The notes beneath the pieces are model-generated. The model did no database searches, was not told the origin of the DNA, and was given only the letters and a program-made list of their open reading frames with translations. From assembly GCA_049968235.1 (NCBI GenBank), contig JBMFRC010000013.1, positions 18,422 to 82,421 of the forward strand: a DNA stretch of 64,000 nucleotides, written 5' to 3'. Of the stretch, positions 3,510 through 48,849 are shown in pieces. Each line of letters starts with the position of its first letter. Positions within the stretch are counted from its first letter, which is position 1. Source of the DNA: Candidatus Hydrogenedens sp. GTDB lineage: Bacteria > Hydrogenedentota > Hydrogenedentia > Hydrogenedentales > Hydrogenedentaceae. Position numbers and translations under genes: made by a program.

Positions 3510-4670
3510 TTATGGAGGGGTAATTTTTCCTAAAACTACTGGATGAGATGCTCCTGTAACCTGTGGTATATTGGCAGGTGTTCCACATATGGTTTCATTC
3601 CCGAGGATAGCAAAAGAAAGTGCCTCACGCGAAGAGTTTGGTATTCCATATTGGTCACTTGTAAATACCGGAATGGGTGCCAGACTTTTTGATAGCCACT
3701 TATGTATGGTTCTATTTTTCGCACCACCACCACCAATAATAATATGGTCGATTGTATATTGAGTTTTCACAAATCTTTCATAAGCATCAACAATGGTTCG
3801 AACTACCATAGTTGTTACCGTAGCGACAAGGTCTTCTACTGGATATTCCTTACGACTGGCTAAAGCATCTCTTAAATAATTTTCTTCACTGAAATCGTCT
3901 CTACTGGCTGTTTTAGGCGGAACTTTAACAAAAAAGGGATGGTCTAATAAATATTCAAGAAATTCATCAATAACCTTTCCATGTCTTGCCATACGACCAT
4001 CACGGTCCATATTTTCCGCTCCGCGTGTAAGAAGACGGACTGTTGCATCGATAGCCATATTTCCCGGACCTGTATCGAAGGCGAAGATTTTTTGGAAATC
4101 CGGGTCTATCACCGCCATATTAGATATACCCCCAATATTTATACAAAGAATAGTGCGGTTAGACCTGCGGAAAAGTATCCAATCCGCATAGGGCATTAAA
4201 GGAGCTCCCTGTCCACCAGCTGCCATGTCGCGGGCTCGAAAATCTGAAACCACAGGCAGACCTGTTCGTTCCGCAATTACCGCAGGTTCTCCAATTTGAA
4301 GGATACCCGTTTTTGAGAAGGTTGGTGGAGCAAGGTGTGCAATGGTATGCCCGTGAGAAGATATTAAATCCACTTCAATATTCTGCTCTTTGGCTATCTT
4401 CATCATTTCCAGCGCCGCCTGTGCCAATAACTCTCCCAGTTGAAAATTTAATTGGCAAATTTCTCGGTCCGTTTTATGTTCTGACAACAAAGCCAACCGA
4501 AAATCTTCGTCATAGGGAAATGTATTCGAAGCAAGTAATCTCATTGCCATTTCCGGACCGGAACCTTTCAGACGGACTAACACCGCATCAATACCATCAC
4601 AAGAAGTACCGGAAGAAAGACCTATTATATAACGCGGTATTTTTTGCTGAAGTGCTCGCAAATCAAACAT
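3510..4670 (-). CDS. anmK: anhydro-N-acetylmuramic acid kinase
   Basis: N-terminus IIGLSSGTSCDGIDAVLV matches the AnmK signature GLMSGTSxDGID; 386 aa. Confidence 0.85.
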   Translation of the reverse strand: MFDLRALQQKIPRYIIGLSSGTSCDGIDAVLVRLKGSGPEMAMRLLASNTFPYDEDFRLALLSEHKTDREICQLNFQLGELLAQAALEMMKIAKEQNIEVDLISSHGHTIAHLAPPTFSKTGILQIGEPAVIAERTGLPVVSDFRARDMAAGGQGAPLMPYADWILFRRSNRTILCINIGGISNMAVIDPDFQKIFAFDTGPGNMAIDATVRLLTRGAENMDRDGRMARHGKVIDEFLEYLLDHPFFVKVPPKTASRDDFSEENYLRDALASRKEYPVEDLVATVTTMVVRTIVDAYERFVKTQYTIDHIIIGGGGAKNRTIHKWLSKSLAPIPVFTSDQYGIPNSSREALSFAILGNETICGTPANIPQVTGASHPVVLGKITPP

Positions 4671-11604: not shown

Positions 11605-12399
11605 ATGGATGAATTTTTACCGACACAAATATTTGAAGTAGATGTTTTTTTGTTCTTCATCCTTGTATTGATGCGGGTATCGGGTCTTTTTGTTTCTATG
11701 CCGATTTTAGGGTCGCAGAATGTTCCCATGATGGTTAAGGCAGGATTAGCAGGTTTAATAGCAATTATCCTTGTTTCAACAATGTCTCCCTTACCCCAGG
11801 GGATTCCTCGTAGTTTTGGGGCATTTCTGGTTGTAGGTGCTTATGAATTTCTTATCGGTGTCGGGATAGGTTTCATTGTTACTCTGATGTTTTCGGCTGT
11901 CCAAATTGCCGGTGAAATCATGGACTTACAGAGTGGCTTTGGAATGATGAACATTTTCAATCCTGCTATGGAAACGCAGTTCCCTATTTTTGGTTTTTAT
12001 CTATTTATTCTCTGGGCAATGTTTTTCTTATGGATAAATGGTCATCTGGTTGTATTACAAATATTAGGGGATAGTTATAAAACGCTTCCTATAGGCTTGA
12101 TGGGGCGAATGGATAATAACTTCGGATGGGAAATAACCAAATGGGGACAAATAATGTTTATGTACGGTGTCCGTCTTGCTGGACCTATCATTGTAACAAT
12201 GATATTGGCATATGCAGTTATGGGAATATTAGGTAGGGCTATTCCTCAGATACATCTTTTAGTTATTGGCTTTCCCATTACCATTGGTTTGGGAATGATT
12301 GTTATAGGAATTTCTTTAGGTGTTTATATAGGTGTTTTCGAGGATATGGCACAGGAAATGGTTCGTGAAGTTCAACTATTTATACGAGGTTTAGGATAG
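11605..12399 (+). CDS. fliR: flagellar biosynthetic protein FliR
   Basis: 264-aa polytopic membrane protein immediately after fliQ. Confidence 0.8.
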   Translation: MDEFLPTQIFEVDVFLFFILVLMRVSGLFVSMPILGSQNVPMMVKAGLAGLIAIILVSTMSPLPQGIPRSFGAFLVVGAYEFLIGVGIGFIVTLMFSAVQIAGEIMDLQSGFGMMNIFNPAMETQFPIFGFYLFILWAMFFLWINGHLVVLQILGDSYKTLPIGLMGRMDNNFGWEITKWGQIMFMYGVRLAGPIIVTMILAYAVMGILGRAIPQIHLLVIGFPITIGLGMIVIGISLGVYIGVFEDMAQEMVREVQLFIRGLG

Positions 12400-12405
12400 T
12401 ATCTT

Positions 12406-13524
12406 ATGCCAGAAGATGTCGGAGGTGAAAAAGTATTTCCGCCTACTCCACGAAAAAAGGAGCGGGCTCGGGAAGAAGGTAATGTAACACGAAGTCAAGA
12501 ATTGACGTCTGCTATCGGCTTAAGTTCTGCTATGGTGGCATTATGGTTTATTGCACCTTTGACTTTTCAACATTTATTAAATGTAACAAAACATTACTTT
12601 GAGGAACCCTGGCAATCTATTTCTGATGCTTCTGAACTTCAATCTTTGATGCTGGAAGTTGGAATTTATATTGGGATAGGTGCTTTGCCTTATATCTTAA
12701 TTATGATGTCTGCAGGTCTGGCTATTGCTTACGCACAGGTGGGCTTACTCTGGACAGGAAAACCTCTTATTCCAAAATTAAATCGAATAAATCCTATTTC
12801 CGGGTTTAATCGGTTTTTTTCTCTACGGGCTTTATACGAGTTGGGGAAAAACATTGCGAAACTGGCTCTTTTATTGGTTATGGTTTATTATGCCCTTCGC
12901 AATCGCTGGACAGAACTCATCCTTCTTCCGAATTACTCTATCGTTGATATTTTATATGTTAGCGGTGAACTATTTCTTGCGGTATGGTGGCGTATAACTC
13001 TTGTTATGTTGGTTCTGGGTATAGCGGATTACGGATTTCAATGGTGGCAACGTGAACAGGATTTGCGTATGACAGTTCGTGAGATGCGGGAAGAAATGAA
13101 AGAGATGGAAGGAGACCCGGCAATAAAAAGACGTGTTCGTCAGATGCAACGGCAAATTGCTTATCAACGAATGTTACGAGAAGTACCCAAAGCAGATGTT
13201 ATCATAACGAACCCAACAGAATTTGCTGTTGCCTTACAATACGATATGAATACAATGCCTGCACCCATCGTGATAGCGAAAGGTGCGAGACTTATAGCCG
13301 ACCGAATCCGCGAAATTGCAGTTCGGCACCAGGTCCCGATTGTGCAGAAACCAGAACTTGCACGGACCTTGTATAAAACGGTTGAGGTCGGTCAAACCGT
13401 CCCTGAAAATTTATTCCGTGCAGTGGCGGAAGTATTAGCCTTCGTATATCGCATCGACCGCAGAGAGGAAAAGCAAAAAGAGCGTCAAGAATTTTTATTA
13501 AAAGAAAACCGTAAAACAGCATAG
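12406..13524 (+). CDS. flhB: flagellar export gate protein FlhB (autocleavage site variant NPTE)
   Basis: 4 TM helices plus cytoplasmic domain with NPTEFAVAL in place of the canonical NPTH. Confidence 0.85.
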   Translation: MPEDVGGEKVFPPTPRKKERAREEGNVTRSQELTSAIGLSSAMVALWFIAPLTFQHLLNVTKHYFEEPWQSISDASELQSLMLEVGIYIGIGALPYILIMMSAGLAIAYAQVGLLWTGKPLIPKLNRINPISGFNRFFSLRALYELGKNIAKLALLLVMVYYALRNRWTELILLPNYSIVDILYVSGELFLAVWWRITLVMLVLGIADYGFQWWQREQDLRMTVREMREEMKEMEGDPAIKRRVRQMQRQIAYQRMLREVPKADVIITNPTEFAVALQYDMNTMPAPIVIAKGARLIADRIREIAVRHQVPIVQKPELARTLYKTVEVGQTVPENLFRAVAEVLAFVYRIDRREEKQKERQEFLLKENRKTA

Positions 13525-35195: not shown

Positions 35196-35211
35196 ACTCC
35201 GGACAAATTGA

Positions 35212-35733
35212 CTATCCTTCATTATCGTTCATCTTATCTTCCTCATCAGGTCTTTTTATATACGTATCAATCCCATATTTATCATAAACATTAAAAATCT
35301 CCTCGCAAAACTGTATAATCCGCATATCACTTTTCTCTTTTGCTTCATTATAAAGCCTTATTATAAACCGTTTCCCAAACTCCGTTTGAGAATAATTCTT
35401 CTTTAAATAATTATTCACCGAACATAATGTTTGTCCATTTTCAACAGAATTTGTCCCTCCTTTATCCAGCGGAATCCTATGGTCCACATGTATCTCCACA
35501 CCATCTTCCCTACCCCTTACACAAACCACACAACGATAATTGTCCCTCTCAAATATTTCTTCCTTCACTGAATCAGTAAATTCAAATAACTCCCTTTTCT
35601 GAACCAAATCGGGGTCATATTTATAGACCCCTTTTTTTTCCTTTATTAGCCACCCACTTTGATGTAATTTTCGAATCCCCCACCAGGGATCTCTCGGTTT
35701 TCTCCCATACAACTTTTTATATTGTTCTTCCAC
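35212..35733 (-). CDS. HNH endonuclease (possible restriction-endonuclease remnant of an R-M pair)
   Basis: CVVC..HVDHRIP..NGQTLC HNH motif; adjacent to disrupted MTase. Confidence 0.65.
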   Translation of the reverse strand: MEEQYKKLYGRKPRDPWWGIRKLHQSGWLIKEKKGVYKYDPDLVQKRELFEFTDSVKEEIFERDNYRCVVCVRGREDGVEIHVDHRIPLDKGGTNSVENGQTLCSVNNYLKKNYSQTEFGKRFIIRLYNEAKEKSDMRIIQFCEEIFNVYDKYGIDTYIKRPDEEDKMNDNEG

Positions 35734-35834
35734 CTAATCTACAACGGGTCCATGAGATAATTATTTTTTCGGATGAGAAATAAAATATTCCATTATCAGG
35801 TCTTCAATACTAATATACTTCGACTCTTCCACTT

Positions 35835-36637
35835 CTATTCAGCCTTCCTTACCATATCGAACCTTAACTGGTCAATCTCTACCTCTTTTAACAACCGTTG
35901 TTTTGCTATTTTGCAATAGTTTTCATCTATTTCAATACCAATTCCTTTCCTATTCGTTGTGGCACATGCAAGAAGAGTTGTCCCGCTTCCTAAAAAGGGG
36001 TCTAATACCGTATCCCCGACAAAAGTAAACAATTTAATACATCGTCTTGGCAATTCAAGTGGAAACGGTGCCGGATGACCAATTCTCGTTTTGCTTTCTC
36101 CCATAAAAGTCCAAAACCCATTGGTCCACTGGACAAATTCATCTTTTGTTATGTCTGACTCTCCACTTCCACTTGTTTTTTTCCAATTATTTTTATACAG
36201 CACTGCTATCATTTCCACAGGAGCAATTACATACGGTGCCGAAGCAGATAACCATGAACCCCATGCGGTTCTTCAGGAAATATTTTGTTCATTCCAAACA
36301 ATTGCAGAATGGTATTTATAACCTATCTTTTTTGCGATAGTTATTACATCCGCAAATACACTTTGCTGTCCACCTTTGTTCTTATCCAATGGAATATTTA
36401 AACAAAACCTTCCGTCTCCTTTTAATACTCTATACGCTTTATCAAGCCAATTTGCCGTAAATGCCAGATATTCTTTATACGAAACTGTATCGTTATATGA
36501 ATTATAACTAATATCTACATTATACGGAGGGGAAGTTATAATCAAATCGATAGAATTCTCTTCAACACAATCCGTTACCAGGAAATCTGCATTGTAAATC
36601 TGCAGATTATTTCTTTCAAAATAAGTTTTTCTTTCAT
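35835..36637 (-). pseudogene. beta-class (N6A/N4C) DNA methyltransferase, disrupted by a -1 frameshift in an A5 tract (36626-36630) and an in-frame TGA (36273-36275)
   Basis: true start ATG 36637 with GAGGTG SD; motif IV DLIITSPPY precedes motif I DPFLGSGTT; frames reconstructed by hand. Confidence 0.6.
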
Positions 36638-36776
36638 GCTAAACACACCTCAAATCATTATTAACACAATCATACCATTATAATACCCCTTTTAACTTGC
36701 CTATACAAAATATTTACCTACCCGATGTATTGCTTCCTATTTACTATCATCTCATTTTCTTGTATCCCATTTTACT

Positions 36777-38924
36777 TTATTTATTTTCTGCAATCCTTTT
36801 TACTTTATCCGGCAATTTTTCTCTGTATTTGTCGGTGTATAGTCCGATTTGAGCAAAGGGGATGGGGTCGAAATTAAATCCTGATGTGATTAATATATCT
36901 TTATTTATCTCAAAATTTCCCTGTGTGAATTGAGGAAATAAGGCGTCGTCGTTATTAACTAGATTATCCTCGAAAATAATTTGGGATGCTTCCATTTTTC
37001 TCATGACTTCGTTGCATTTCCAGAATATATTTCTTCTCACGGTATTCTTATTTCTGTCCTCATAAATGTTTACTATTTCCGGATATTTTTGAACATACAA
37101 GTTGTAATCTATATCGGGCTTATTAAGGGCATCATTCACAATGTTTCTCCATTCTTCTTCGGTGCAGGTCTGAAAAGTAACGCCAATAAAACAATCCGCA
37201 AAGATATTATTTTCTATCAGGTTATCCTTACCTCCATTTACCTGAACGCCACCGAAAATGCCCTCCTTAGCACATGCTTTATAAAACACATTCCCGTAAA
37301 TCTTCACACCTGAGATAGGAAAATCCAGCCGAACTCCTCCCTGTAAAGGCAGACCAGGCTTGTCCCAATTCCCGATATGATGCCAGTAGTTGTAGCGATA
37401 TATCATACCGCGATAAGTGGGATTCCCATAACTATCCAAGCCACCCTGGTCATCTGATTCCTGAACCACATCGCAAACCTCATTATATTCAACAAGAATA
37501 TCATTTCCATCCATACGGAAAGCACTGCTCGGATTCTTATGCACAAAATTATGGGAAATCACATGTCCTACACCTTCTCCATACACCGCTGGTTTGTAAG
37601 TATGGTCAACACGGGCTAAATCATAAAAATAGCAGTTATCTACTTTGAACCCACTTGAGGTTAACGTTTTACGGTTACCCCCTTTCAAAAATACACCCCC
37701 TTTCCCTAAAGTCTCGAAGTCACAAGATTGGACACAATGGTTTTTTCCTCCATCTACGGCAACCCCATAGCCTCCACTCTGGCTAAAAGAACAACCCAAT
37801 ATTCGGATATCCTCTCCCTCAAAAATCTCTATTAGATTTCCAGAACTCAGTTTAAAATGTAATCCTTCTACATAGATATGGCTCGCATCTTCAAATGTAA
37901 ACATGGGTCCCTCAAACCATGAAAACTCAATAACTGCTCCATCCATATTTGCGGGCGGATAAAAATATAGGAGCATATTTTCCCTATCCAGATACCATTC
38001 ACCGGGCTGGTCCAATTCACACAATAGGTTAAGAGCATAAAATCTTGCCCCTTCCTTATACCCATAAGCCGAAGCAGATTGAGCCAATTTTATTTCCCTT
38101 TTATCCAGGTCAATCGAACCTATATATTCATAAGAATCCGACCAATCGTAATGCCAATATCCATGCAATAGAACATTAGGCTCATTTACCCAATTTTGAA
38201 GTGGGCAGTTCTCTACTTTGATTTTTACATTTGTCATTGTAGAAAATCCCGGTAATCGTTCAACAGTCTCTCCTTCTACTCCCGCAACATGAAGGAAACC
38301 CTCATTGGGATACCTTGCTAATGTCATAGCCTGCCCATTGAAAAATATCTCTACATATGGGAAAGCGGTATATCCTTTATAACCGCGGTCCTTCTGACGT
38401 AATTCCAGATTTCCAAATCCACCTAACTTCAACGGAGGGAGAGATTTTAATCCATACTCTTTCATATCTGCCACATAAAGTTTCTCCCATATTTCCTTTT
38501 TAATCCTACCTGAGGCATCTACTTCTCTCATCTTCTTAAAATTCTTTATCTAAATTCCACCGCTGATTATGTTTTCTGATTTATCTTCTGTGGTAATAAT
38601 AATCGGTTTCCCTTCTTCTCCACTATGCTCTTTTGTAAAAACTACTCTATCGGTTATTTTATATTCCCCTTTTTGCAGGACAATTTTTACCCCTTTTTCT
38701 GGGAATTTACCATTCTTTTTCAGTCCACCTATATAATTCAGGACTTCTTGAAATGTATTAAAAGATACCCCTTTATCAAATGCTTCCTTGTTATCATTTA
38801 CAGGCAAAACGCGGATTCTTTTTTGATAGGATAGTTCAGAGGCATACAGGAAATATCCATTTCCCATAAGAAAAAGTGCACAAACCCAGAGCACACCAAA
38901 ACGAAAAATATCCTTCGGCTTCAT
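36777..38924 (-). pseudogene. secreted right-handed parallel beta-helix (pectate-lyase fold) protein interrupted by a single in-frame TAG (38550-38552)
   Basis: the 124-aa signal-peptide ORF and the 584-aa beta-helix ORF are in the same frame, separated by TAG plus 6 sense codons; no SD for the second part. Confidence 0.5.
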
Positions 38925-39022
38925 AATCCATCCTTTACAAATTGCTTATTATAAATTTATGGTATCCATAACAAATCATCCTCTTTCATTATTTTCCCAT
39001 GTCGCAAATAACTGAGAACTTG

Positions 39023-39946
39023 CTATCTCTTACCTTTTATAAATTCTACCGTTTGGGTCAAACCTGTTTTAAGGTCAGTTTTGGGTTGCCAGCCTAAAAT
39101 TTGATATGCTTTCTCACCTGTAATAAAGATAGTTTGCACTTCACCGGGACGTAACGGTGCTAATTCCGGTTCTTCGTTATACCCTACAACCTTGGCAATA
39201 ATATCAAAGATTTCGCGGACTGTCGTCCCTTTTGCCGAACCTAAATTCACTGTTTCATTTACTCCCTTTTCCAGCCCTAATAAAAACGCTCGTGCTATAT
39301 CCTTCACAAAGACATAGTCGCGTTTGGGTGTGCCATAACCATACAAAACGGGTTTTTTCCCTTTCAACATAAGACCGGTAAGTATGGAACAAACACCGGC
39401 TTCCCCTTCGGGGCTCTGCCTCGGTCCATATACATTCGGTAATCGCAAAATAAGATAGTTCAGACCATGAAGTCGTTGATACAAACCTAAATAATGTTCA
39501 AAGGATAACTTACTTGTCCCATAGGGGGACATCGGTTTGGGGAAATAAGTTTCTGGCACAGGTAAAAGTTCCGATTCACCATATATAGCCCCACCTGTAG
39601 ACGAAAAAATAAATTTACTTACACCATATTTCACAGCATTATTTAACAGATTAATCCCACCTAATATGTTTACTTTTGCGTCAAATATCGGGTCTGTTAC
39701 ACTTTTTCGAACATCAATTTGAGCTGCTAAATGTGCCACAAAATCTGGACGAAATTCGTTAAATACCATATCCATTTGCTCTGAACATACATCCATTTCG
39801 ATAAACTTCGCTTTCGTATTTAAATTTTCAAGTTTCCCTGAACTTAAGTTATCAACAACAAGTACCTCGTGTTGATTTTCGAGCAATATATCTACCACAT
39901 GCGAGCCAATAAACCCTGCTCCACCTGTAACTATTACTTTTGACAT
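39023..39946 (-). CDS. NAD-dependent epimerase/dehydratase (UDP-sugar 4-epimerase/decarboxylase family)
   Basis: VTGGAGFIGSHV Rossmann motif and YGTSK catalytic Tyr-x3-Lys. Confidence 0.8.
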   Translation of the reverse strand: MSKVIVTGGAGFIGSHVVDILLENQHEVLVVDNLSSGKLENLNTKAKFIEMDVCSEQMDMVFNEFRPDFVAHLAAQIDVRKSVTDPIFDAKVNILGGINLLNNAVKYGVSKFIFSSTGGAIYGESELLPVPETYFPKPMSPYGTSKLSFEHYLGLYQRLHGLNYLILRLPNVYGPRQSPEGEAGVCSILTGLMLKGKKPVLYGYGTPKRDYVFVKDIARAFLLGLEKGVNETVNLGSAKGTTVREIFDIIAKVVGYNEEPELAPLRPGEVQTIFITGEKAYQILGWQPKTDLKTGLTQTVEFIKGKR

Positions 39947-47563: not shown

Positions 47564-48274
47564 TCACTCCTGCTGACAGAAAAGGAATGAAACCCAAGAA
47601 CATAAATCGTCAATAGTTCCTAGGGTATACAATGATGTTATGAAAGGTATAGATTCGAAAGGGGCATTAATACCATAAGTATCCATTATCAATGTCTGGA
47701 ATGCATAGGTCTGAACTACGAGTGTAGATAATGAATCTATTAGCCCTTGAATTTGAGGTTCCTGGTCGGAACGAAATGTGAGCATAGGCGTAGTAGTGTA
47801 ACCGCAGAGTTTTTCCGGAGTTTCTTCTACCTGCCAGTTGTTCATCAAAGACAACCAATAAGACCATATCTCCCAATATTCTTGTTCGCTCACTTCTCCG
47901 CAGGTTGTCTCACTGCATAATTTCGTTGTCCACTCACTAACGGGGATAGGTCCATCCTGTATGGACAGGTCTATAATACAGACATTCCCTTCGACATTTA
48001 TAACGACCGCATGATGATAGGGCCAATAAACATGTATGGGTTCGTTGGGAAAAGTAATATCATTTGTTGATATAAAATTCTGAAACACAATCAGAGGACC
48101 CGTAATGTTTATGGATGCCACATCTATATACGGTTGAGCGAGTACTTGCTGAATTTTTGTTTCTGTCAAGTCATTCGTGTCAAGTATCACATCCGTTTCG
48201 GGAATAGGGTCGGGCGTCGAAGCAATTAAATATTGCAATAAAAGGCTTCGCTCCTGACAGGACTGGTTTATCAT
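47564..48274 (-). CDS. hypothetical protein; the frame stays open upstream to 48481 and probably forms the C-terminal part of a frameshifted PASTA lipoprotein gene
   Basis: hand translation shows no stop in this frame from 48481 to 48274, overlapping the 3-prime end of the PASTA ORF. Confidence 0.4.
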   Translation of the reverse strand: MINQSCQERSLLLQYLIASTPDPIPETDVILDTNDLTETKIQQVLAQPYIDVASINITGPLIVFQNFISTNDITFPNEPIHVYWPYHHAVVINVEGNVCIIDLSIQDGPIPVSEWTTKLCSETTCGEVSEQEYWEIWSYWLSLMNNWQVEETPEKLCGYTTTPMLTFRSDQEPQIQGLIDSLSTLVVQTYAFQTLIMDTYGINAPFESIPFITSLYTLGTIDDLCSWVSFLFCQQE

Positions 48275-48411
48275 GGACCACGCTATTGGGACAAGAATTC
48301 CATCTTCAGAACGAATTTTTGCCTTTCTTACATAACTTGCGACACGAGTTGCTTTTTCACGGGTAATTGGATGCAGTCCGTAAGGGTTGGGCTTCCTGCC
48401 CAGGGAAATGG

Positions 48412-48849
48412 TTATATTAACTTTACTCCCAAAAATAACTTTGGTCCCAAATTTAGGCTCTGAGGATAAATATCTGAAAACTCACGAGAAATAGTTCCCA
48501 CTTTCAGAGAAGATTGATGAAGTATATCGATACCATCTTTTTGTGTTATTCCGATGATATACGGAACACTAACTTTATCTGAACCTCGAGAAATTACAAG
48601 TGTGACTTTTATTCCTTCATCTACCTTTGAACCACCAGCGGGGTCCTGACTTATTACATGGTTCTCAGCAACATCATCCGAATACATATACATTACGGAT
48701 ATAGAATAAAAACCTGCAGACCGAATTTCATCCATAGCCATACTTTCCGGATAACCAACAACATTTGGAAGTGTAATGATTTTGGGGCAGGCAGAACAAA
48801 GAACACACATAACTATCAGGAGAAAAAACTGTTTAATGTATTTATTCAT
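48412..48849 (-). CDS. lipoprotein with two PASTA domains (possibly truncated by a frameshift)
   Basis: lipobox LCSAC; two blocks resembling PASTA (PNVVGYPESMAMDEIRSAGF..., VSVPYIIGITQKDGIDILHQSSLKVG...). Confidence 0.5.
   Translation of the reverse strand: MNKYIKQFFLLIVMCVLCSACPKIITLPNVVGYPESMAMDEIRSAGFYSISVMYMYSDDVAENHVISQDPAGGSKVDEGIKVTLVISRGSDKVSVPYIIGITQKDGIDILHQSSLKVGTISREFSDIYPQSLNLGPKLFLGVKLI

What the first reader, a model, noticed from the sequence alone, without database searches (positions are those of the whole stretch)
36777..38924. Single in-frame amber codon splits a secreted beta-helix protein into signal-peptide and passenger ORFs
ORFs 38550-38924 (signal peptide plus first beta-strands) and 36777-38531 (584-aa parallel beta-helix) are in the same frame and separated only by TAG plus six sense codons (IKNFKK). 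There is no SD before the downstream ATG. The gene sits behind an NAD-dependent epimerase and is probably co-transcribed with it. This is either a recent nonsense mutation (pseudogene), a base-call error, or a case of stop-codon readthrough. Together with the MTase and PASTA lesions this makes three disrupted genes within 13 kb.
Basis: seen in the sequence. Interest (0 to 1): 0.5.

Follow-up and report, generated by a model that had tools for sequence, protein, structure and literature searches.

The report
Recent amber mutation splitting a secreted enzyme gene
A single C-to-T change has turned a glutamine codon into a stop codon inside a secreted GH141-like sugar-cleaving enzyme gene of an uncultured Hydrogenedens bacterium; a near-identical sister assembly still has the intact codon, so this is an ordinary, very recent knock-out allele and not a recoding signal.

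Summary
On the minus strand, a 124-codon ORF (38924-38553) carries a signal peptide. It is followed by TAG (38552-38550), six sense codons (IKNFKK), and the ATG of a 584-codon beta-helix ORF that ends at 36777, all in one frame.

The window comes from a Candidatus Hydrogenedens MAG. Orthologues at 70-81% identity are uninterrupted proteins of 689-717 aa with Gln at the TAG column. A sibling assembly contig that is 99.93% identical has CAG at this codon. Another sibling has the same TAG plus an extra frameshift.

TAG is a normal terminator in this genome. It ends 12 of 54 long ORFs, and the epimerase's TAG stop is conserved in three lineages. I found no other in-frame TAG, no suppressor tRNA and no RNA structure after the stop.

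The protein is a GH141-like right-handed beta-helix glycoside hydrolase. The 124-aa piece holds the export signal and part of the catalytic domain, so the truncated product should be inactive.

Verdict: a real, recent CAG-to-TAG nonsense polymorphism, and ordinary. One curiosity remains. Sister Hydrogenedens lineages carry a different in-frame TAG, at codon 371 of the same gene, apparently acquired twice. This hints at recurrent loss or attenuation of the enzyme.

The parts
36777..38924 (-). Whole ancestral gene: 715 codons plus the terminal TAA, encoding a secreted GH141-like right-handed beta-helix protein, now interrupted at codon 125
   Evidence: collinear with uninterrupted orthologues of 689-717 aa (70-81% identity). 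AF2 model (pLDDT 86) whose best PDB fold match is GH141 BT_1002 (5mqp, E 1e-18).
38553..38924 (-). Upstream ORF of 124 codons: Sec-type signal peptide (residues 1-28, by eye) plus the first strands of the catalytic beta-helix, including the conserved EHSG...P and SGG motifs
   Evidence: Invariant columns S101, G102, P107, G122 and G123. This stretch aligns with residues about 20-152 of PDB 9rx2 and about 26-123 of 5mqp.
38550..38552 (-). In-frame amber codon TAG. The ancestral and sibling state is CAG (Gln). The SNP is at window base 38552 (T on the minus strand).
   Evidence: L002 (GCA_049969095.1) has C here; L001 (GCA_049971155.1) has T. Gln (CAG or CAA) in the closest orthologues.
38532..38549 (-). 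Six sense codons (IKNFKK) between the TAG and the internal ATG; part of the conserved motif GGIQIKNFKK
36777..38531 (-). Downstream ORF of 584 codons plus TAA: beta-sandwich insertion and the main beta-helix coils. It has no signal peptide and no SD. It is annotated in the public record as a separate CDS.
   Evidence: PF13229 E 2.8e-14; GH141_M sub-threshold. (NCBI MGC8738901.1, 100% identical).
38925..39022 (-). 98-nt spacer between the epimerase and the beta-helix gene. Its 3' 40 nt (AT-rich block plus AAAGG before the ATG) are conserved in sister lineages, so it may hold the gene's own promoter and RBS.
   Evidence: spacer comparison of window, L003 and L006. (no terminator predicted).
39023..39946 (-). 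NAD-dependent sugar epimerase/dehydratase, the conserved upstream neighbour. Its TAG stop is conserved at the same position in three lineages.
   Evidence: PF01370 E 6e-58. (synteny). (conserved TAG terminator).

Best explanation
The locus is one gene for a secreted GH141-like beta-helix glycoside hydrolase. In this strain it carries a very recent CAG(Gln125)-to-TAG nonsense mutation, a C-to-T change on the coding strand at window base 38552.

Shown: the TAG is derived. It segregates among near-identical Hydrogenedens genomes, with two assemblies carrying TAG and one carrying CAG. TAG is an ordinary terminator in this genome.

Inferred: translation stops after 124 residues, releasing a signal peptide plus a fragment of the catalytic domain. 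Any re-initiation at the ATG 18 nt downstream would give a 584-aa protein that lacks both the export signal and the N-terminal part of the catalytic beta-helix. That product would stay in the cytoplasm and be inactive.

The allele is therefore a null, or at best a strong hypomorph. Rare near-cognate reading of UAG by tRNA-Gln would regenerate the wild-type protein at trace level.

The gene appears dispensable or counter-selected in some populations, because sister lineages carry independent amber alleles of the same gene.
For: -: anatomy as described.
- orthologues P0002-P0006 (70-81% identity) are continuous and have Q at the TAG column.
- protein P0123 from a sibling MAG reads ...SGGIQIKNFKKMREV... 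straight through.
- the L002 contig differs from the window at 3 of 4349 bases, all transitions, one of them C versus T at 38552. L001 shares the T and adds one A in an A6 run at 37746, a second disabling lesion on the TAG background.
- TAG ends 12 of 54 long ORFs. The epimerase's TAG stop is positionally conserved in window, L003 and L006, and the sequence after it is not conserved.
- no other gene is split by an in-frame TAG in the 64-kb window or in roughly 100 kb of related loci.
-, with PMC10154630: the N-terminal ~108 residues of GH141 BT1002 belong to its catalytic domain, and the window's residues ~25-154 align to that region.
- independent TAG alleles occur in orthologues, so nonsense alleles of this gene are real and recurrent.
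Against: - No reads were available, so a consensus error in the MAG cannot be formally excluded.
- The three sibling assemblies probably come from one project, and their independence is not documented.
- The downstream ORF shows no decay, which is expected for a mutation this recent, so loss of function is inferred and not shown.
- Four of four nonsense events seen in this family are TAG, and codon 371 was hit twice. Purely neutral, random pseudogenisation does not predict this.
Confidence: 0.8

Rival explanations
1. Selected loss or attenuation. The amber allele is favoured, or held at intermediate frequency, because losing or turning down this secreted enzyme is advantageous in some settings. 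Possible reasons are saving the cost of a public good or escaping something that targets the protein. Rare near-cognate UAG readthrough would leave a trickle of functional enzyme.
For: -: H. terephthalaticus (L003/L004/L005/L010/L071) carries TAG at codon 371 as its only lesion.
- L007 and L008 are 99% identical to L006, which has GAG at that codon, yet they carry TAG at the same codon as an isolated change in an L006-like background. This is a second origin.
- about 325 nonsense changes are possible, so same-site recurrence has p of roughly 0.003-0.01.
- flanking syntenic genes are intact, so only this gene is hit.
- Both TAGs sit at variable, tolerant columns, and the ancestral residue at 125 is Gln, which is what near-cognate decoding of UAG inserts (established knowledge from E. 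coli, recalled and not tested here).
Against: - Only three or four events are known.
- Recombination among these lineages is frequent, so an unsampled donor could explain the shared TAG371.
- On the L003 branch the N/S ratio is raised about 2.4-fold in both halves of the gene. That fits simple relaxation after inactivation.
- No expression data exist.
Confidence: 0.12
2. Sequencing or assembly consensus error. The true base at 38552 is C and the gene is intact in this organism.
For: - The source is a MAG.
- Other lesions nearby include homopolymer-associated frameshifts: a probable A5/A6 problem at the methyltransferase start, and A6 versus A7 in L001. That is typical of error-prone consensus.
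- All three differences from L002 are transitions.
Against: - The same T is present in a second, differently fragmented assembly (L001, GCA_049971155.1).
- The site is not in a homopolymer.
- Transitions are also the commonest natural SNPs.
- At the third difference (37265) the window has the ancestral-like Glu and L002 the derived Lys. This looks like real strain divergence.
Confidence: 0.05
3. Programmed recoding. UAG is decoded, as Gln, pyrrolysine or another residue, by a dedicated suppressor or by context-dependent readthrough, and the full-length secreted protein is the normal product.
For: - The ORF is perfectly intact on both sides of the TAG.
- All four nonsense events seen in the family are TAG, against an expectation of about 0.33-0.37 per event.
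- UAG followed by A is a comparatively weak termination context in E. coli (recalled, not tested).
Against: - The TAG is not conserved: the sibling has CAG and orthologues have CAG or CAA.
- TAG is a conserved true terminator in the genus and ends 12 of 54 long ORFs.
- No other in-frame TAG is present.
- No tRNA-CUA is present in the window or the fetched loci.
- The RNA after the TAG folds no better than shuffles (z = +0.86), and there is no Rfam hit.
- The full-text search turned up no paper on stop-codon recoding or pyrrolysine use in Hydrogenedentes; the few hits were judged from titles and abstracts and were not opened.
- One TAG haplotype already has a second lesion.
Confidence: 0.03

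Closest known systems
Ordinary nonsense-mutation pseudogene or segregating loss-of-function allele in a bacterial population
   Same: A single derived stop codon, one substitution away from the ancestral sense codon. The ORF is otherwise intact. Intact alleles occur in near-identical genomes, and one haplotype has a second lesion.
   Different: Nothing essential differs. The only unusual point is that sister lineages carry independent amber alleles of the same gene, one codon apparently hit twice.
E. coli K-12 rpoS codon-33 amber polymorphism (TAG / CAG / GAG alleles, with internal re-initiation downstream); recalled from memory, not checked in the paper library
   Same: One codon alternates between TAG, CAG and GAG among close relatives. 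The amber allele acts as an attenuated form, not a cleanly dead gene. A start codon lies shortly downstream of the stop.
   Different: In rpoS the truncated product keeps its function and supE suppressors are present in laboratory strains. Here the truncated product loses its signal peptide and part of the catalytic domain. No suppressor is known, and no phenotype data exist.
Glycoside hydrolase family GH141 (BT_1002 of Bacteroides thetaiotaomicron, PDB 5MQP; XynE of Acetivibrio thermocellus; endo-fucanases)
   Same: [quoted passage not shown] 5mqp is the best fold match, and the sequence profile matches the N-terminal segment (SGGIxIxxFKK against SGGIRIGGWKK).
   Different: Only about 14% identity. 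Pfam GH141_M is below its gathering score. The catalytic Asp pair was not mapped. Substrate is unknown. The family (over 1200 homologues in Hydrogenedentota, Planctomycetota and Verrucomicrobiota) is best called GH141-like and uncharacterised.
Amber reassignment or suppression systems (genetic code 15 in some phages, pyrrolysine decoding, supE-type tRNA-Gln(CUA))
   Same: An in-frame TAG at a position where Gln is ancestral.
   Different: TAG is a regular, conserved terminator in this genome. There is a single in-frame TAG in 64 kb. It is not conserved even in a sibling strain. No machinery was found.

Membership tests
Nonsense-mutation pseudogene / loss-of-function allele | In-frame stop at a position that is a sense codon in orthologues, with collinear homology on both sides | tested here: met
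   Q in five closest orthologues; E, R, K and others in distant ones. CAG in sibling L002.
Nonsense-mutation pseudogene / loss-of-function allele | Stop reachable from the ancestral codon by one substitution | tested here: met
   CAG to TAG, a C-to-T transition at window 38552.
Nonsense-mutation pseudogene / loss-of-function allele | Truncation removes parts needed for function | tested here: met
   The signal peptide and residues aligning to the N-terminal part of the GH141 catalytic domain are in the 124-aa piece (domain limits of BT1002 from PMC10154630). Loss of activity itself is inferred.
Nonsense-mutation pseudogene / loss-of-function allele | Signs of decay (further lesions, relaxed selection) | tested here: inconclusive
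   L001 has an additional 1-nt insertion on the TAG haplotype, but it lies in a homopolymer of a short contig. The window lineage is too recent for dN/dS. The L003 lineage shows a 2.4-fold raised N/S ratio.
Programmed stop-codon readthrough / recoding | The stop codon is conserved at that position among relatives | tested here: not met
   only the window and L001 have TAG at codon 125.
Programmed stop-codon readthrough / recoding | Stimulatory RNA element downstream of the stop | tested here: not met
   MFE -14.3 kcal/mol against shuffles at -16.7 ± 2.8 (z = +0.86); no Rfam match.
Amber reassignment / suppressor tRNA / pyrrolysine | Many genes with in-frame TAG, and TAG rarely used as a terminator | tested here: not met
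   one in-frame TAG in 64 kb. 12 of 54 long ORFs end in TAG. The epimerase TAG stop is conserved in three lineages.
Amber reassignment / suppressor tRNA / pyrrolysine | tRNA with CUA anticodon and/or pylTSBCD genes in the genome | not testable with these tools
   Only tRNA-Val(TAC) in the window, and none with CUA in the fetched loci. The rest of the genome is not available.
GH141 glycoside hydrolases | Right-handed parallel beta-helix catalytic domain interrupted by a beta-sandwich insertion after the first ~110 residues | tested here: met
   (secondary structure of the AF2 model). (5mqp top hit, E 1e-18, TM 0.48-0.60)..
GH141 glycoside hydrolases | Significant match to the family's sequence models | tested here: not met
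   PF21231 GH141_M scores 20.9 bits, below the gathering score of 27; no NCBIfam hit. The precomputed Pfam annotation lists PF22842 Pel9A-like beta-helix for most homologues.
GH141 glycoside hydrolases | Equivalents of the catalytic residues D523 and D564 of BT1002 | not tested
   Invariant acidic residues exist (E479, E482, E489, D491, D492, D497, D534), but no residue-level structural superposition was available.
Sec-dependent secreted protein | N-terminal signal peptide with a positively charged n-region, a hydrophobic core and a small-residue cleavage site | not tested
   Judged by eye only (MKPKDIFR / FGVLWVCALFLMGNGYFLYA / SEL). The AF2 model shows an N-terminal helix at residues 3-31. 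No signal-peptide predictor was available.

The most novel reading that the evidence does not exclude
Amber alleles of this secreted GH141-like enzyme may be a recurrent, selected way of switching the gene down in Hydrogenedens populations. The known cases are codon 125 in this lineage and codon 371, hit twice, in sister lineages. Trace near-cognate (Gln) readthrough, or an as-yet unseen amber suppressor, would keep a low level of functional enzyme. This would be a natural counterpart of the E. coli rpoS-33 amber polymorphism in an uncultured phylum.
Probability: 0.08. Interest if true: 0.55.

Novelty: already known. Interest (0 to 1): 0.2.

Why it matters
For annotation, the two CDSs in the public record (a 124-aa hypothetical protein and a 584-aa beta-helix protein) should be merged and flagged as one disrupted gene. 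The 584-aa entry should not be used as a representative of the family.

For biology, the finding is a small example of strain-level loss-of-function polymorphism in a secreted polysaccharide-active enzyme of a poorly known phylum. It says nothing new about the genetic code.

The only point that might repay more work is why the same gene carries independent amber codons in several Hydrogenedens populations.

Tried and rejected
1. Genome-wide amber reassignment. Rejected: other same-frame adjacent ORF pairs in the window are separate genes (FliR|FlhB, M20 peptidase|DUF2961, DUF134|unknown). TAG is a frequent and conserved terminator.

2. Readthrough-stimulating RNA or a known RNA family near the TAG. 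Nothing found.

3. Suppressor tRNA. None in the window or in 18 related loci.

4. Literature search for stop-codon recoding or pyrrolysine in Hydrogenedentes. By title and abstract, none of the few hits looked relevant; I did not open them.

5. Restriction-site avoidance. The CAG allele forms GAATTC and the TAG allele destroys it, next to a decayed R-M locus. GAATTC is only mildly under-represented (18 observed against 30.6 ± 5.7 expected), so I dropped the idea.

6. Short gene-conversion import of TAG371 from the L003 type into L007/L008. The flanking informative sites are L006-like on both sides, so no simple tract explains it.

7. Look-up of the window's own 584-aa protein by exact match found no contig on record. 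The 124-aa ORF and P0123 did work.

8. One homologue search was wasted on a mistyped query and gave nothing.

9. dN/dS for the window lineage is uninformative, with only 3 SNPs against the sibling.

Full report
**Observation**

On the minus strand the sequence reads ATG(38924)...GGT GGA ATT TAG ATA AAG AAT TTT AAG AAG ATG(38531)...TAA(36779-36777). This gives a 124-codon ORF, one TAG at 38552-38550, six sense codons (IKNFKK) and a 584-codon ORF, all in one frame. The first ORF begins with a signal-peptide-like segment (MKPKDIFR-FGVLWVCALFLMGNGYFLYA-SEL, judged by eye). The second ORF matches Pfam Beta_helix (PF13229, E 2.8e-14) and, below threshold, the GH141 insertion domain.

No Shine-Dalgarno-like sequence lies at the usual distance from the internal ATG. 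The upstream gene (39946-39023) is an NAD-dependent epimerase. The spacer is 98 nt and has no predicted terminator.

**Source and orthologues**

A homologue search with the read-through protein identified the organism as a Candidatus Hydrogenedens MAG. The 584-aa ORF is present in NCBI as MGC8738901.1 and the 124-aa ORF as MGC8738902.1, so the public annotation already lists two CDSs.

The closest orthologues (P0002-P0006, 70-81% identity) are uninterrupted proteins of 689-717 aa. In the alignment all five have Gln at the TAG column, inside the conserved motif SGGIQIKNFKK. More distant relatives have E, R, K, C or V there.

**Sibling assemblies**

The 90% cluster of the window's protein contains a 622-aa partial protein, P0123, from another MAG. 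It reads straight through with Gln. I fetched the DNA and compared it base by base.

- Contig L002 (GCA_049969095.1, 4349 bp) differs from the window at only three positions, all transitions. One is C (CAG) against T (TAG) at window 38552.
- Contig L001 (GCA_049971155.1, 2362 bp) has the same TAG. It also has one extra A in an A6 run at 37746, which frameshifts the downstream part.
- At the third SNP (37265) the window keeps the ancestral-like Glu and L002 has Lys, so each haplotype carries its own derived state.

The TAG is therefore a derived C-to-T transition that segregates among near-identical genomes. It appears in two differently fragmented assemblies, which makes a random base-call error unlikely. 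Without reads this is not proof.

**Is TAG decoded here?**

TAG terminates 12 of 54 long ORFs in the window. The epimerase's TAG stop sits at exactly the same position in the window, L003 and L006, and the sequence after it is unconserved.

The other same-frame adjacent ORF pairs in the window are distinct genes: FliR|FlhB with its own ATG and RBS, M20 peptidase|DUF2961, and others. In about 100 kb of related Hydrogenedens loci, the only coding region split by an in-frame TAG is this same gene.

The window has a single tRNA, Val-TAC, and 18 related loci have no CUA tRNA. The 131 nt around and after the TAG fold no better than shuffled sequence (z = +0.86). No Rfam family matches nearby apart from the tRNA. 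By title and abstract, none of the few literature hits looked relevant to recoding or pyrrolysine in this phylum; I did not read them. Recoding or programmed readthrough thus has no positive support.

**What the protein is, and what the TAG does to it**

An AlphaFold2 model built from 19 family members has mean pLDDT 86. Its best PDB fold match is GH141 BT_1002 (5mqp, E 1e-18, TM 0.48-0.60), followed by GH120 and GH110 enzymes and PL6 lyases. A sequence profile of the family hits 9rx2 ("parallel beta-helix repeat protein") and 5mqp in the N-terminal segment, query residues ~25-154.

According to PMC10154630, the catalytic domain of BT1002 consists of residues 1-108 plus 296-619, with a beta-sandwich inserted between them. 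Mapped onto the window's protein, the 124-aa ORF carries the export signal and the N-terminal part of the catalytic beta-helix, including invariant S101, G102, P107, G122 and G123.

I infer that termination at codon 125 yields a useless fragment. Any re-initiation at the ATG 18 nt downstream would give a cytoplasmic, incomplete enzyme. The allele is a null or a strong hypomorph.

Membership in GH141 proper is not established. Identity is about 14%, GH141_M scores below its gathering threshold, and the catalytic Asp pair was not mapped. "GH141-like, uncharacterised" is the honest label. The family is large: 1237 hits at E <= 0.001, mostly in Hydrogenedentota, Planctomycetota and Verrucomicrobiota.

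**The other two lesions**

- The methyltransferase (PF01555) is split by TGA at 36275-36273. This replaces a nearly invariant Arg in NISRRTAWGSW.
- Its only nearby ATG (36636) is out of frame by one base across an A5 run, so it probably has a second lesion (direct reading).
- The PASTA lipoprotein (48849-48412) is frameshifted inside its second PASTA domain near 48455.

These are three different kinds of lesion: amber, opal and frameshift. That argues for ordinary gene decay or consensus errors and against a codon-specific phenomenon.

**An unexpected extra**

The 90% cluster of orthologue P0002 also contains split members. In Candidatus Hydrogenedens terephthalaticus the orthologous gene has a single in-frame TAG at codon 371 (...NLIEIL*GEDIRISGC...). 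This allele is in the SAG assembly GCA_000405125.1, the AWNW01 combined assembly, two JGI metagenomes and a Logan assembly, and the three copies compared base by base (L003, L004, L005) are 100% identical over 2154 nt. The window and P0002 have GAG at that codon.

Two short contigs from other datasets (L007, L008) are 99% identical to the intact L006 gene, yet they also have TAG at codon 371. Informative sites on both sides of that TAG are L006-like. It is therefore either an independent G-to-T change or a very short conversion from an unsampled donor. A distant homologue (L023) has CAG-to-TAG at the invariant Gln561.

About 325 single-base changes in this gene create a stop, and only about 33-37% of them create TAG. 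Four TAGs out of four events (p about 0.02) and one codon hit twice (p about 0.003-0.01) are mildly surprising.

Flanking syntenic genes are intact in these lineages. On the H. terephthalaticus branch the ratio of non-synonymous to synonymous codon changes is 40/49, against 35/102 in intact lineages. Pairwise dN/dS stays at 0.08-0.16. This indicates some relaxation but far from neutrality.

Recombination among these lineages is evident: L009 and L011 are mosaics. This weakens the case for independent origins. The most economical reading is that this secreted enzyme is repeatedly lost or attenuated in Hydrogenedens populations. A selected "amber hypomorph", as at codon 33 of E. coli rpoS (recalled from memory), is possible but unproven.

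**Verdict**

It is a very recent CAG-to-TAG nonsense polymorphism in a secreted GH141-like beta-helix enzyme gene. Confidence is about 0.8 for a genuine mutation that inactivates the gene. The rivals are about 0.12 for a selected or attenuating allele, 0.05 for a consensus error and 0.03 for programmed recoding.

This is an ordinary phenomenon and interest is low (0.2). The recurrent amber alleles in sister lineages are recorded as a curiosity worth a read-level population survey.

Noticed in passing
L003 7111-7113 (also L004, L005, L010, L071); L007 1390-1392; L008 1373-1375: The orthologue of the window's gene carries a different single in-frame TAG, at codon 371 (GAG in the window, L006 and L009). 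It occurs in H. terephthalaticus across five datasets. It also occurs, as an isolated change, in two contigs that are 99% identical to the intact L006 gene. This looks like the same nonsense change arising twice.
   Followed up: partly
L023 about 4567-4569 (codon 523 of the match): A distant homologue (41% identity, high-GC contig OBLW0100009585.1) has CAG-to-TAG at the family's invariant Gln (FGGV*IHGGKDN). This is another amber-disrupted copy.
   Followed up: no
window 35835-36638 (-): An N6/N4 DNA methyltransferase is split by an in-frame TGA (36275-36273) that replaces a nearly invariant Arg in NISRRTAWGSW. Its only nearby ATG (36636) is out of frame by one base across an A5 run, so it probably has two lesions. 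An HNH endonuclease gene (35733-35212) follows, so this is a decayed restriction-modification pair.
   Followed up: partly
window 47564-48849 (-), junction near 48455: A lipoprotein with PASTA domains is frameshifted within its second PASTA domain. The continuation (…KVNITISLG…) and a Gln_deamidase_2-like C-terminal region lie in another frame.
   Followed up: partly
window 35200-36700 versus L006 10380-12378: The position just downstream of the beta-helix gene holds different restriction-modification genes in different lineages. The window has a methyltransferase plus an HNH nuclease. L006 has a methyltransferase plus a BsaWI-like endonuclease. L003 has unrelated genes. It appears to be a variable defence-island slot.
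   Followed up: no
window 38925-38965 (-); L003 5960-6000; L006 7960-8000: The last ~40 nt of the epimerase to beta-helix spacer are conserved across lineages that are about 79% identical in the gene (GATACyATAAATTTrTmATAwrCAAnTTTnTAAAGG). The rest of the spacer is not conserved. This could be the gene's own promoter and RBS, so co-transcription with the epimerase is not certain.
   Followed up: no
L009 and L011 (whole gene), compared with L003 and L006: Orthologous genes are recombination mosaics. L009 switches between L006-like and L003-like blocks. L011 (P0136) has a divergent N-terminal third joined to a P0002-like C-terminal part.
   Followed up: partly
window 38547-38557: The ancestral CAG allele forms a GAATTC palindrome (GGAATTCAG) and the TAG allele destroys it. 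GAATTC is mildly under-represented in the window (18 observed against 30.6 ± 5.7 expected).
   Followed up: yes
window 12397-12408 (+): fliR ends in TAG, and flhB starts 7 nt later in the same frame (TAG TAT CTT ATG). This looks like a split gene in ORF lists but is two normal genes.
   Followed up: yes
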